Below are positions 4,641 to 18,885 of a DNA stretch of 64,000 nt, piece by piece. This DNA comes from Candidatus Saganbacteria bacterium (GTDB lineage Bacteria > Margulisbacteria > WOR-1 > XYC2-FULL-46-14 > WPAF01). Numbering within the stretch: the stretch's first letter is position 1; each line of letters starts with the position of its first letter. Under the pieces are notes generated by a model. The model ran no database searches. It was not told where the DNA came from and was given only the letters and a program-made list of their open reading frames with translations. The stretch covers positions 26,441 to 90,440 of the forward strand of contig JACRPM010000010.1 in NCBI GenBank assembly GCA_016223205.1, read 5' to 3'. A program made the translations under genes and the position numbers.

Positions 4641-6866
4641 ATGGTGGCCCAGTACCGCGAGATAAAAGCCCGCCACCAGGATGCTATCCTCTTTTACCGC
4701 TTGGGGGATTTTTACGAAATGTTCAACGAGGACGCCGAGCTCGCCAGCCGGGAGTTGGACCTGACTTTGACCGGCCGCGGCAAGGATGAGAACCGCATGC
4801 CCATGTGCGGCATTCCTTATCATGCGGCGCAGGGCTACATTGCCCGGCTGATCGAGAAGGGCTACAAGGTAGCTATCTGCGAACAGACCGAAGATCCCAA
4901 CCTGGCCAAGGGATTGGTCAAAAGGGAGGTCGTTCGCATCGTGACCCCGGGGACGGTGCTCGAATCCGATCTATTGTCCGAAAAAAGCAGCAACTATCTG
5001 GCGGCGATCTCTTTGGAGAAGGGGAAATACGGGCTGGCTTATGTCGAGGCCTCGACCGGCGAGTTCAAGACGACCGATTTTACGGATGAAACACAGCTTA
5101 AAGCCGAGATCGACCGCATCGCTCCCGCCGAGACCATCGCCGCAAAAAACGGCTCCGCGGTTGACGCCATACTAGAATATCTCAAGCAAAACCGCAAGAC
5201 CCGCTTAGGGCATATTGGAGAGGCGGTAAGATATTCGGTCGGCGAGTTCATGCTGATCGATCCGCAAACCCGGCGGAATTTGGAGCTTATCCAGACCATC
5301 CGCGACCGGGCTTTTAAAGGAAGCTTGCTTTGGGTTTTAGACCAGTGCCGGACCAGCATGGGCAGCCGCCTGCTTAAAAATTGGCTGCTGGCGCCGCTGC
5401 TCAACCGGGAGGAGATCGAGCGGCGGCTGGAGGCGGTGGCGGAATTACATGGAAACGCCATCCTGCGCGCCGAATTGTCCAGAGAACTCGATCAGGTCTT
5501 TGATATCGAGAGATTGACCGGAAGGGCGGCCTCCGGCGCCGCCAACGCGCGCGACCTTATCTCTTTGGCCGAATCCTTAACGCATTTGCCCCGTATCGCC
5601 GATATTCTGAAAAATTCCAAAACCTTGAAAGTTCCAAATCCCTTGCCCGAAGTAACGGACCTTATCCATAGGGCGATCGTAAATGACCCGCCGTTTGTCT
5701 TGACCGCAGGCGGGATCATCAAGGATGGATATAATGCCGAGCTCGATGAGCTCAAGCAGGCGGCTCGCGGCGGTAAAAGCTGGATCACGGAGCTGGAGAA
5801 TAAAGAACGCCTGCGCACCGGCATCAAATCCCTCAAAGTCGGTTTTACCAAGGTGTTCGGCTACTATATCGAAGTGAGCAACGCCAATCAATCAGCGGTT
5901 CCCGCCGATTATATCCGCAAGCAAACCCTGGTGAACTGCGAGCGCTTTATCACCCCGGAGCTCAAGGATAAAGAATCTTTCATCTTGAACGCCGAAGAAC
6001 GGCTGAAGGACATGGAATATAAGATATTCTGCGAAGTCCGCGAACAGGTCGCGGAGCACACCAAAGAGCTTCAATCCATCGCCCGCCAACTGGCCCGGAT
6101 AGATGTTCTGCTTTCTTTGGCCGAAGTCGCGGTCGCCAACAATTTCTGCCGCCCCCGGATCACCGGATCAGCGGATATCCGGATAACCGAATCGCGTCAC
6201 CCGGTTGTCGAAAAAACTCTCGGAGAACAAAAATTCACCCCAAACAACATTGTGATGGATGCTGAATCGCGATTTCTCATGATTACGGGGCCAAACATGG
6301 CGGGGAAAAGCACGTATATGCGGCAAGTTGCCCTCATCTGCCTTATGGCCCAGATCGGCTCCTTTGTCCCGGCCGCATCCGCCGAGCTTGCGATCATCGA
6401 CCGCATCTTTACCCGCATCGGGGCCATGGACGACATTTTCTCCGGCCAGTCCACCTTTATGCTGGAGATGACCGAGACCGCCAATATCTTAAAGAACGCA
6501 ACCGAGAACAGCTTGATAATTCTCGATGAAATAGGGCGGGGGACGGCGACTTTTGACGGCATGTCGATCGCGGCGGCGGTGGCGGAATATATCCACGAAA
6601 AGATCAAAGCGAAAACCTTATTCGCCACGCATTATCACGAAATAACCCAGCTGGCGGAAAAACACCCCGGCATGAAAAATTTCAATGTTCTGGTCAAAGA
6701 AGTTGGGGAGGAAATCACCTTTTTGCATAAGATCGCGGAGGGCCCGGCGGACAAATCTTACGGCATCGCGGTAGCCAAGCTGGCGGGCTTGCCCGCTGAA
6801 GTGGTTAAGCGCGCGCGCGAGGTCTATAATACGCTCGAAATGGCGGAAACCGACTTACTTGGCTAA
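4641..6866 (+). CDS. mutS: DNA mismatch repair protein MutS (lacks the C-terminal tetramerisation tail)
   Basis: Canonical N-terminus [34 protein letters not shown]. Walker A [15 protein letters not shown]. Track ORF starts at 4542, but that region is a palindromic repeat. Start placed at ATG 4641 (MVAQY). Confidence 0.85.
   Translation: [741 protein letters not shown]

Positions 6867-18885: not shown

What the first reader, a model, noticed from the sequence alone, without database searches (positions are those of the whole stretch)
6859..18885. 12-kb gene for a 4008-aa beta-helix/Ig-repeat surface protein with a T9SS-type C-terminal sorting domain
One ORF spans 19% of the window. It has a signal peptide, repeated pectate-lyase-like parallel beta-helix modules each ending in a conserved NPRFVNPDGNDY.LFSDSPC...NPWKTVTKGLGSTEGTVYVRAGTY cap, a run of Ig/Fn3-like domains, and a C-terminal about 90 aa matching the Por_Secre_tail/FlgD-Ig pattern. 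It looks like a giant adhesin or S-layer-like protein.
Basis: partly seen in the sequence, partly recalled or inferred. Interest (0 to 1): 0.55.

Follow-up and report, generated by a model that had tools for sequence, protein, structure and literature searches.

The report
Giant surface protein with PorV-SLH partner
A real 4008-residue surface protein of a Saganbacteria-type bacterium ends in a divergent version of the tail that Bacteroidota use to sort type IX secretion cargo. The next gene encodes its probable dedicated outer-membrane docking protein, fused to cell-wall-binding domains, in a lineage where type IX secretion is not known.

Summary
The ORF is real: 6859..18885, 4008 aa, signal peptide, seven beta-helix modules, about 14 Ig-like domains and a C-terminal beta-sandwich. 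Two run-level assemblies are 100% identical to the window. The longest internal exact repeat is 25 nt. The tail alone fails the curated T9SS models (TIGR04183 18.3 bits against 23; no Pfam hit). It nevertheless belongs to a large C-terminal family (1612 cluster representatives). Of 42 sampled tails, 35 match TIGR04183. Its AlphaFold model (pLDDT 91) is closest to the PorU, PorZ and mirolase CTDs.

The next gene encodes a PorV/PorQ-family barrel fused to a triple SLH cell-wall-binding module. This cargo-then-PorV pairing recurs in 27 of 34 assessable metagenome loci, in several Margulisiibacteriota/WOR-1 genomes, and a second time in this window.

NCBI labels the source Candidatus Saganbacteria, which lies outside the phyla known to have a T9SS. 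No T9SS core gene was seen.

Best reading: a Sec-exported adhesin-like fibre is docked by its CTD onto a cognate PorV-like barrel tethered to peptidoglycan, as type B CTD cargo is held by PorP/SprF. The route across the outer membrane is unknown. This is a new variant of a known kind, of moderate interest.

The parts
6859..18885 (+). Gene for the 4008-aa giant surface protein (NCBI MBI5699912.1, 'right-handed parallel beta-helix repeat-containing protein'). The TTG start overlaps the mutS stop by 8 nt.
6859..6921 (+). Signal peptide, aa 1-21 (MAKKIGLIILCLILLGTVAQA|AD).
   Evidence: read; no predictor was run
6922..11415 (+). Beta-helix modules M1-M4 (aa 22-415, 416-803, 804-1152, 1153-1519). 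Each has a DUF1565-type N-cap, PbH1 coils and an NPRFV...SDSPC C-cap.
11422..11652 (+). Internal Kre9/KNH-type Ig domain (aa 1522-1598) between M4 and M5.
11692..15204 (+). Beta-helix modules M5-M7 (aa 1612-2009, 2010-2387, 2388-2782).
15232..17868 (+). Stalk of Ig-like domains (aa 2792-3670): six KNH-type Ig domains plus three other beta domains at about aa 3095-3380.
17917..18222 (+). Big_5 bacterial Ig-like domain (aa 3687-3788). It is followed by one more Ig-like domain (about aa 3795-3900) that matches the region before the CTD in the PorU model.
18583..18882 (+). C-terminal 7-strand beta-sandwich (aa ~3909-4008), a divergent member of the T9SS type A CTD / FlgD-Ig superfamily. Motifs: YPTTYNP, GGKAGYN, GNGIYIYKL, IGTGRLAIF-COOH.
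18879..20654 (+). Partner gene: a PorV/PorQ-family outer-membrane barrel fused to a C-terminal triple SLH module (NCBI MBI5699913.1, annotated from ATG 19014, 546 aa). The signal peptide lies upstream of that ATG. The probable ATT start at 18879 overlaps the giant gene's stop codon.
19014..19901 (+). PorV-like barrel region. Annotated aa 1-296 match NF033709 positions 18-324 of 326.
20166..20651 (+). SLH module. Pfam gives SLH x2 at 86 bits. The ortholog profile matches the whole three-SLH unit of B. anthracis Sap, E 1.5e-20.
43642..46899 (-). Second cargo in the window: 1085 aa with DUF7483 x5, Big_5 and a C-terminal Por_Secre_tail (27.4 bits against a cut-off of 27). The tail is distantly homologous to the giant's tail (family HMM E 2e-7).
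42191..43645 (-). Second PorV-family gene (NF033709 120 bits, passes the cut-off of 90) with C-terminal TPRs, directly downstream of the second cargo.
53902..55182 (-). Third, weaker PorV-family paralogue (49 bits), with no adjacent CTD cargo.

Best explanation
The locus is a two-gene surface-display module.

The 4008-aa protein is exported by Sec; its signal peptide is read from the sequence. It is a long adhesin-like fibre: seven right-handed beta-helix modules on a stalk of about 14 Ig-like domains.

Its C-terminal 7-strand beta-sandwich is a homologue of the T9SS type A CTD. Inferred: this domain docks onto the extracellular face of the PorV-family barrel encoded immediately downstream and probably translationally coupled.

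That barrel carries a periplasmic triple SLH module. Inferred from established SLH and OmpM biology: the module binds the peptidoglycan-linked polymer. The chain would therefore run cell wall - SLH - PorV-like barrel - CTD - fibre. This retains the fibre non-covalently at the surface, much as type B CTD cargo such as SprB is held by its cognate PorP/SprF barrel encoded directly downstream.

Shown here: domain architecture, homology of the tail and the barrel, and strongly conserved adjacency.

Inferred: physical CTD-barrel binding, retention of the CTD, and an adhesive role for the passenger.

Unknown: the channel by which the passenger crosses the outer membrane.
For: Tail family: 1612 cluster representatives at E<=1e-3, almost always at the extreme C-terminus of signal-peptide proteins, with passengers ranging from 0 to 17 beta-helix modules. 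That is the behaviour of a portable sorting or anchoring signal.

Of 42 tails, 35 match TIGR04183, 26 match the PorU C-terminal domain and 22 match FlgD_ig.

Partner: NF033709 E 6.6e-18 over nearly the whole model. All 12 orthologues match PorV_fam and 11 of 12 match PorV2. SLH x2 by Pfam; the triple Sap-type module by profile.

Linkage: in 27 of 34 assessable close-tail metagenome loci a PorV-like ORF starts at the cargo stop on the same strand, and in 28 of 34 within 1.1 kb. Genome loci L004, L007, L009 (two cargos) and L012 show the same pair in either gene order, with different flanking genes.

A second CTD-cargo/PorV pair lies in the same window.

No terminator-like site lies in the gap, and the partner's signal peptide overlaps the giant's stop.

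Precedent: PMC12618676 and PMC9143113 describe cognate downstream porP/sprF genes and SprB bound to SprF. bioRxiv 10.1101/2021.05.31.446380 describes SLH-barrel OM tethers in Saganbacteria and Margulisbacteria.
Against: The window's own tail is below the TIGR04183 cut-off and has no Pfam hit. The partner is below the PorV_fam cut-off (65 against 90).

The loci were found through tail similarity, and some are near-duplicates (L007/L028 and L032/L033 encode identical products). Part of the adjacency therefore reflects common descent.

Six close-tail loci lack an adjacent PorV-like gene.

No binding data exist, and no outer-membrane translocon was identified.

The partner needs a non-canonical start codon to have a signal peptide.

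The passenger's function is unassigned. The module profile finds only 9rx2 'parallel beta-helix repeat protein' at E 0.0017 in the PDB.
Confidence: 0.55

Rival explanations
1. It is an ordinary T9SS substrate. The genome encodes a full type IX machine elsewhere (SprA/Sov, PorK/L/M/N, PorU, PorZ). The CTD is recognised by PorV at the SprA translocon, cleaved by PorU, and the protein is attached to lipopolysaccharide.
For: The tail family matches TIGR04183 and the PorU and PorZ C-terminal domains. Three PorV/PorQ-family genes lie in 64 kb. The structure is closest to T9SS CTDs.
Against: NCBI labels the source Candidatus Saganbacteria. Relatives are Margulisiibacteriota/WOR-1, in Bacillati. The T9SS is stated to be exclusive to Bacteroidota/FCB (PMC12618676, PMC7463736, PMC12398890). 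No paper links these phyla to the T9SS. No SprA, PorU or GldKLMN appears among about 40 window ORFs or the ten largest flanking ORFs in 408 kb of related loci. In canonical T9SS, type A cargo genes are not paired with private porV genes. The whole genome could not be searched.
Confidence: 0.15
2. The tail is only one more structural Ig/FlgD-like domain with no sorting or anchoring role. The PorV-like gene is an unrelated envelope gene, a FadL-type transporter or OM tether, that happens to be a neighbour.
For: Ig-like sandwiches are ubiquitous. Three family members carry 11-12 internal tandem copies of the domain. The window's scores are sub-threshold. The partner alone could act as an OmpM-like tether.
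Against: The domain sits at the extreme C-terminus in nearly all of the best 150 hits, on unrelated passengers. Same-strand, stop-to-start adjacency occurs in 27 of 34 loci; about 1.7 would be expected even at this window's high PorV density of about 5% of genes (my estimate). Both gene orders occur and the flanks differ. A second such pair is in the window.
Confidence: 0.1
3. The passenger is a multi-enzyme array, with the seven beta-helix modules acting as polysaccharide lyases or hydrolases, rather than an adhesin. It would still be displayed by the same CTD/PorV-SLH anchor.
For: Right-handed beta-helices with DUF1565/NosD/CASH signatures include many carbohydrate-active enzymes. There is a faint profile similarity to an alginate lyase, E 0.23. 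T9SS cargo in Bacteroidota is often enzymatic (PMC10202324).
Against: No catalytic family is detected by Pfam, NCBIfam or the PDB sequence search at meaningful E-values. The strongest conservation is in the inter-module caps (dN/dS 0.055), not in an identifiable active-site cleft. Relatives vary the module number from 0 to 17, as repetitive adhesins do.
Confidence: 0.2
4. The ORF is an assembly collapse or chimera of repeats.
For: The gene is highly repetitive at the protein level and comes from short-read metagenomes.
Against: The longest exact internal repeat is 25 nt. Repeats are at most about 86% identical in DNA, with dS about 0.8. Two run-level assemblies are identical to the window. The sister contig L014 is collinear. 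A 3778-aa N-truncated relative, 65-72% identical, has the same architecture.
Confidence: 0.02

Closest known systems
T9SS type A C-terminal domain (TIGR04183 / PF18962) recognised by the PorV shuttle (Bacteroidota)
   Same: Extreme C-terminal position. About 100 aa forming a seven-strand Ig-like beta-sandwich. YPNP-like, GxY and terminal hydrophobic-strand motifs. Cargo carries a Sec signal peptide. A PorV-family barrel is present. Family members score on TIGR04183, and the model superposes best on the PorU, PorZ and mirolase CTDs.
   Different: The window copy is below the curated cut-offs. The host is Saganbacteria, in Terrabacteria. No T9SS core genes were seen. Each cargo has its own PorV-like gene directly downstream, whereas in Bacteroidota all type A CTDs use the one PorV shuttle (PMC12618676). 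The PorV-like protein carries SLH or TPR extensions. There is no evidence for PorU cleavage or A-LPS attachment.
Type B CTD cargo with cognate PorP/SprF-like barrel (e.g. SprB-SprF of Flavobacterium johnsoniae; PG1035-PorP of P. gingivalis)
   Same: Giant repetitive adhesin. The gene for a dedicated outer-membrane barrel lies directly downstream. The cargo is proposed to stay bound to that barrel for surface anchorage. Orphan cargos also exist (PMC12618676, PMC9143113; compare).
   Different: The tail here is type A-like, not type B; no TIGR04131 hit was listed. The barrel is PorV/PorQ-family, not PorP/SprF. PorP is linked to peptidoglycan through a separate protein, PorE (PMC9143113, PMC12773672), whereas here the wall-binding SLH module is fused to the barrel.
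OmpM / Slp-type outer-membrane tethers of diderm Terrabacteria (SLH + beta-barrel)
   Same: One polypeptide combines an OM barrel with periplasmic SLH domains. This is the OM-to-wall tethering solution reported for Saganbacteria, Margulisbacteria and Cyanobacteria (bioRxiv 10.1101/2021.05.31.446380). The window also encodes a classical N-terminal-SLH OmpM-like protein.
   Different: Domain order is reversed, with the barrel N-terminal and three SLH C-terminal. The barrel is PorV/FadL-type rather than porin-type. It is genetically paired with a CTD cargo.
DUF1565 / LIC10774-family right-handed beta-helix surface proteins (Leptospira and others) and 'choice-of-anchor Q' C-caps
   Same: Each module matches DUF1565, Beta_helix and the LIC10774 model (7 stretches). 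The NPxFV...SPxIDxG C-cap matches choice_anch_Q.
   Different: Seven modules are concatenated in one chain. The LIC10774 equivalog cut-off is not met (159 against 380). Those proteins are single-module.

Membership tests
T9SS type A CTD (TIGR04183 / PF18962) | Scores above the curated HMM cut-off | tested here: not met
   TIGR04183 18.3 bits against a cut-off of 23 (E 0.0017) on the isolated tail. There is no hit on the whole protein and no PF18962 or PF13860 hit.
T9SS type A CTD (TIGR04183 / PF18962) | Homology to the family, shown through intermediate sequences | tested here: met
   Of 42 close relatives of the tail, 35 match TIGR04183 (best 1.3e-9), 12 match PF18962 and 22 match FlgD_ig. 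The family HMM hits the window's other tail, which passes PF18962, at E 2e-7.
T9SS type A CTD (TIGR04183 / PF18962) | Seven-strand Ig-like beta-sandwich at the extreme C-terminus of a protein with a Sec signal peptide | tested here: met
T9SS type A CTD (TIGR04183 / PF18962) | Host encodes the T9SS core (SprA/Sov, PorK/L/M/N, PorU, PorZ) | tested here: inconclusive
   None found in the 64-kb window or among the ten largest flanking ORFs of 408 kb of related loci. The whole genome could not be searched. The literature places the T9SS only in Bacteroidota/FCB.
T9SS type A CTD (TIGR04183 / PF18962) | CTD removed by PorU and cargo linked to anionic LPS | not testable with these tools
   This needs proteomics.
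PorV/PorQ family (NF033709) | Scores above the curated cut-off (90 bits) | tested here: not met
   The partner 19014..20654 scores 65.4 bits, E 6.6e-18. Paralogue 42191..43645 passes with 120.2 bits.
PorV/PorQ family (NF033709) | Full-length match to the barrel model, consistent across orthologues | tested here: met
   aa 1-296 match model positions 18-324 of 326. All 12 orthologues match PorV_fam (best 2.1e-23), 12 of 12 match PorQ and 11 of 12 match PorV2.
PorV/PorQ family (NF033709) | [quoted passage not shown] | tested here: inconclusive
   A typical signal peptide is encoded in frame upstream of the annotated ATG, but it needs an ATT start at 18879. All orthologues have signal peptides with canonical starts.
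PorV/PorQ family (NF033709) | Binds CTD cargo and docks on the SprA/Sov translocon | not testable with these tools
   Only genetic linkage was shown.
Type B CTD (TIGR04131) with PorP/SprF partner | Type B CTD HMM match and a PorP/SprF-family neighbour | tested here: not met
   The NCBIfam scan of the tail at E<=10 lists only TIGR04183 and the PorU model. The neighbour is PorV/PorQ-family. The resemblance lies in gene organisation and the proposed mechanism only.
OmpM-type OM tether | SLH domain(s) and an OM beta-barrel in one polypeptide | tested here: met
   SLH 86 bits. The triple SLH matches Sap, E 1.5e-20. The barrel is shown by NF033709.
OmpM-type OM tether | N-terminal SLH followed by a porin-type barrel | tested here: not met
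   Here the barrel is N-terminal, the SLH module is C-terminal, and the barrel is PorV/FadL-like.
Right-handed parallel beta-helix repeat proteins (PF13229, PF07602 DUF1565) | HMM matches above the gathering scores | tested here: met
   Beta_helix 181 bits (cut-off 25.9), DUF1565 156 bits (20.3), NosD 115 bits (23.6).
LIC10774/LIC10365 surface protein family (NF047854) | Equivalog cut-off of 380 bits | tested here: not met
   159 bits summed over 7 stretches. This is module-level similarity only.

The most novel reading that the evidence does not exclude
CTD-to-PorV recognition is not confined to the type IX secretion system. Diderm Terrabacteria (Saganbacteria, Margulisiibacteriota) would use self-contained cargo/PorV cassettes without SprA, PorKLMN or PorU. 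In these the PorV-like barrel is fused to SLH domains and both receives and permanently anchors giant surface fibres to the cell wall. If so, this would be a simpler relative, possibly an ancestor, of the T9SS sorting step, and a new envelope-anchoring principle for this side of the bacterial tree.
Probability: 0.35. Interest if true: 0.75.

Novelty: new variant of a known kind. Interest (0 to 1): 0.55.

Why it matters
The giant gene alone is unremarkable. Margulisbacteria are already noted for very large genes (bioRxiv 10.1101/2023.11.21.568195), and beta-helix/Ig adhesins are common.

What matters is the conserved pairing of a type A-like CTD with a private PorV-family barrel that is itself tethered to the wall by SLH domains, in a phylum far from Bacteroidota.

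If the CTD/PorV pair works without the rest of the T9SS, three things follow:
- It identifies the minimal recognition and anchoring unit of that system.
- It gives a handle on how T9SS cargo sorting evolved.
- It explains how uncultured sister lineages of the Cyanobacteria display very large surface proteins.

It also has practical value for annotation. PGAP names the two proteins only 'right-handed parallel beta-helix repeat-containing protein' and 'S-layer homology domain-containing protein'. The partner gene's start is probably mis-called, which removes its signal peptide.

Tried and rejected
- Whole-protein scans for TIGR04183, PF18962 and FlgD_ig found nothing. The isolated tail gave only a sub-threshold hit.
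- No other window ORF shares the tail by BLASTP or phmmer. Only the family HMM linked it to the 1085-aa protein.
- Self-BLASTP of the whole protein returned only the identity hit, in two attempts. I replaced it with module-wise alignment.
- The word-index homologue search with the tail found only 2 proteins. The exhaustive HMMER search was needed.
- Single-sequence AlphaFold of the last 214 aa was unusable, pLDDT 47.
- A beta-helix module against PDB sequences, alone or as a profile, gave nothing assignable.
- The PorV-like barrel has no PDB sequence hit; only its SLH part does.
- A ~640-aa OMP upstream of the cargo in six loci looked like a possible third component. It is absent from the window and only faintly FadL/TraF-like, so I rejected it as part of this system.
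- Literature searches for Margulisbacteria or Saganbacteria with T9SS, and for PorV with SLH, found no paper.
- Assembly collapse was rejected.
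Full report
**Observation**

The window contains one uninterrupted ORF at 6859..18885 on the + strand, TTG start, 4008 aa. It overlaps the stop of mutS by 8 nt. It lies in a same-strand run of housekeeping genes: rlmB, pheS, pheT, mutS, the giant gene, a PorV-like gene, dnaB, tmk, alaS.

The N-terminus MAKKIGLIILCLILLGTVAQA|AD reads as a Sec signal peptide (by inspection only).

Pfam gives Beta_helix (1.3e-53, 10 stretches), DUF1565 (1.1e-45, 6 stretches), NosD, Big_5 (aa 3687-3788) and Kre9/KNH-type Ig. NCBIfam adds module-level similarity to the Leptospira LIC10774 family, below its cut-off, and a choice-of-anchor-Q C-cap.

I resolve seven beta-helix modules of about 350-400 aa, 31-53% identical to each other. 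One KNH-type Ig domain lies between modules 4 and 5. After module 7 come six more KNH-type Ig domains, three other beta domains, Big_5, one further Ig-like domain and the tail.

It is nearly identical at four junctions and degenerate at the others.

**Is it an artefact?**

No. The longest exact internal DNA repeat is 25 nt, and direct repeats are at most about 75-86% identical.

The 94-codon junction M1/M2 compared with M2/M3 has dS 0.79, dN 0.044 and dN/dS 0.055. Caps of distant modules are saturated at synonymous sites. The repeats are therefore old duplications held by purifying selection, not collapsed copies.

Logan contigs assembled per run from SRR12113407 (18,027 nt, whole gene plus neighbours) and SRR12113395 (5,736 nt) are 100% identical to the window.

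A contig from another project (L014, 85% nt identity) is collinear across the 3' half of the gene, the PorV-like gene and dnaB. An N-truncated 3778-aa relative has the same architecture.

**The tail**

On the whole protein no T9SS CTD model fires. On the isolated tail TIGR04183 reaches 18.3 bits against a cut-off of 23, Pfam finds nothing, and the last 214 aa match the C-terminal end of the PorU model (E 1.2e-6). Membership by the curated test is therefore not met.

An exhaustive HMMER search shows the tail belongs to a large family: 1612 cluster representatives at E<=1e-3 and 549 at <=1e-10. It sits at the extreme C-terminus of proteins from about 100 to 5420 aa. It typically ends ...G[KYH][IL]V[VI][FYL][DE]-COOH.

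Passengers are unrelated or variable, with 0 to 17 beta-helix modules, and most begin with signal peptides.

Of 42 sampled tails, 35 match TIGR04183 (best 1.3e-9), 26 match the PorU C-terminal domain, 22 match FlgD_ig and 12 match PF18962.

With this alignment AlphaFold gives a confident seven-strand sandwich, pLDDT 91. That is the fold described for type A CTDs (PMC12618676).

The tail is therefore a divergent homologue of the type A CTD / FlgD-Ig superfamily.

**The neighbour**

The next gene is annotated 19014..20654, 546 aa. Over aa 1-296 it matches almost the whole PorV/PorQ family model (E 6.6e-18, 65 bits, cut-off 90). It carries SLH domains at its C-terminus (86 bits).

A profile of 12 orthologues matches the complete three-SLH unit of B. 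anthracis Sap (E 1.5e-20). All 12 orthologues match PorV_fam, and 11 match NCBI's 'PorV2' model.

The annotated ATG yields a protein with no signal peptide. The frame is nevertheless open upstream and encodes ...IRNLIIGISLVIAVSSFGFSAQA|DTVKVATDP..., which aligns with the signal peptides and mature N-termini of all orthologues. No ATG, GTG or TTG is available there.

An ATT at 18879, preceded by GGGAAGG, overlaps the giant gene's TAA. The sister contig has TTG at the equivalent position. I infer a mis-called start and translational coupling. No terminator-like site lies between the genes.

**Is the pairing meaningful?**

Relatives of the partner in the genome collection are all Margulisiibacteriota/WOR-1 MAGs, with one labelled Omnitrophota, at 37-47% identity.

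In L007, L009 (two cargos) and L012 (a curated complete genome, cargo >=3290 aa), ORFs ending in the same tail directly precede the PorV-SLH gene. In L004 the cargo follows it. L006 has a >=1988-aa beta-helix ORF after it. Flanking genes differ between loci.

A metagenome scan with the tail returned 80 loci. Among the 35 with a close tail, 34 have enough downstream sequence. In 27 of these a PorV-like ORF begins at the cargo's stop on the same strand, and in one more it lies 1 kb away.

Eighteen partners have SLH. Seven are short (360-420 aa) and lack it. Only 5 of 45 loci with weak tails show a PorV-like neighbour.

Even at this window's unusually high PorV density, 3 in roughly 55 genes, under 2 adjacencies would be expected. 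That figure is my estimate.

Caveat: some loci are near-duplicates and many are orthologous, so the number of independent events is smaller than 27.

The window itself holds a second instance. A 1085-aa protein (43642..46899, -) has DUF7483 repeats, Big_5 and a tail that just passes PF18962 (27.4 against 27). It is followed directly by a PorV-family gene that passes its cut-off (120 bits) and carries TPRs instead of SLH. The giant's tail-family HMM detects that second tail at E 2e-7.

**Organism and machinery**

NCBI holds both proteins, as MBI5699912.1 and MBI5699913.1 on a 92-kb contig of 'Candidatus Saganbacteria bacterium'. Their names mention neither a sorting domain nor PorV.

Margulisiibacteriota and Saganbacteria are sister lineages of the Cyanobacteria within Bacillati. 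They are diderm Terrabacteria that tether their outer membrane with SLH-barrel (OmpM) proteins (bioRxiv 10.1101/2021.05.31.446380). The window encodes an OmpM-like protein too.

Reviews and primary papers state that the T9SS is exclusive to Bacteroidota or the FCB group (PMC12618676, PMC7463736, PMC12398890). I found no paper connecting these phyla with the T9SS.

No SprA, PorU or GldKLMN homologue appeared among about 40 window ORFs. None appeared among the ten largest non-cargo ORFs in 408 kb of related loci either. I could not search whole genomes, so absence is not shown.

**Mechanism proposed**

Shown: architecture, homology and linkage.

Inferred: after Sec export the fibre reaches the surface and stays bound through its CTD to its cognate PorV-like barrel. 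The barrel's C-terminal SLH module lies in the periplasm and grips the wall polymer, so the load path runs from peptidoglycan to the tip of a fibre of the order of 100 nm. The periplasmic placement assumes the usual even-stranded barrel topology, and the length is my estimate from domain counts.

The nearest functional precedent is not type A but type B cargo. There a porP/sprF-like gene lies directly downstream, the barrel is required for secretion, and SprB remains bound to SprF (PMC12618676, PMC9143113). PorP reaches the wall through a separate protein, PorE, whereas here the wall-binding module is fused to the barrel.

The outer-membrane channel is unknown, and the passenger's ligand or activity is unknown. 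No enzyme family is detectable. The strongest constraint is on the inter-module caps, which favours a structural or adhesive fibre.

**Verdict**

The giant gene itself is ordinary for this phylum (bioRxiv 10.1101/2023.11.21.568195).

The conserved CTD/PorV-SLH cassette in Terrabacteria is, as far as I could find, undescribed. I class it as a new variant of a known kind, with interest 0.55. If the cassette works without a T9SS, its interest would be considerably higher.

Noticed in passing
window 18765-19014: The annotated start of the PorV-like gene (ATG 19014; NCBI and Logan aa) cuts off an in-frame signal peptide (..IRNLIIGISLVIAVSSFGFSAQA|DTVKV..) that all orthologues have. No ATG, GTG or TTG is available. 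The likely start is ATT at 18879, after GGGAAGG, overlapping the giant gene's stop (ATTCTAA).
   Followed up: partly
window 40722-46899 (-): A second cassette: a 1085-aa DUF7483/Big_5 protein with a Por_Secre_tail that just passes Pfam, then a PorV-family barrel with C-terminal TPRs, then an AAA_22 / PEP-CTERM-system-like ATPase with TPR (40722..42191).
   Followed up: partly
window 52494-55182 (-): A third, weak PorV-family paralogue (53902..55182, 49 bits) is followed by a TPR + metallo-beta-lactamase-fold protein. There is no CTD cargo next to it.
   Followed up: no
window 47183-48538 (-): A 450-aa protein with an N-terminal SLH domain similar to Veillonella OmpM (8bym/8bys) and Deinococcus SlpA. 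It is probably the classical OmpM-type outer-membrane tether of diderm Terrabacteria.
   Followed up: partly
window 7972-8256 vs 9136-9420 (aa 372-465 vs 760-853): The inter-module junction (C-cap, linker, N-cap) is about 94% identical in protein but only about 86% in DNA: dS 0.79, dN/dS 0.055. This is unusually strong constraint on a linker region. The cause is unknown; it could be a folding nucleus or an inter-module interface.
   Followed up: partly
L030:1759-3657, L031:3320-5314, L032/L033:3251-5245, L037:1805-3745, L038:1775-3733: In one subclade, a ~640-aa signal-peptide protein with an OMP-type C-terminal ..Y/S-x-F lies directly upstream of the cargo, giving a three-gene cassette. It has faint TraF_2/FadL similarity. 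It is absent from the window.
   Followed up: partly
L031 and L032, ~6250-9910: Two tandem PorV-SLH genes follow one cargo. L009 shows the converse: two tail-bearing cargos precede one PorV-SLH gene.
   Followed up: no
P0009, P0039, P0046: Three proteins carry 11-12 internal tandem copies of the tail-like domain instead of a single C-terminal one. The fold is therefore also used as an ordinary repeat.
   Followed up: no
window 18868-18882 (giant C-terminus): The window's tail ends ..GRLAIF. In contrast, 123 of 151 sequences examined (the family hits) end in D or E after the last hydrophobic strand, and only 3 end in F.
   Followed up: no
window 33819-40166 (+): A run of eight same-strand ORFs is mostly without family hits. 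One (34476..35735) has a VWA domain. It may be a Bat-like or other envelope operon.
   Followed up: no
L011:2-3844: A >=1281-aa YadA-head-repeat protein (trimeric autotransporter adhesin type) lies in a WOR-1 MAG near its PorV-SLH gene. These lineages therefore also carry type V-style adhesins.
   Followed up: no
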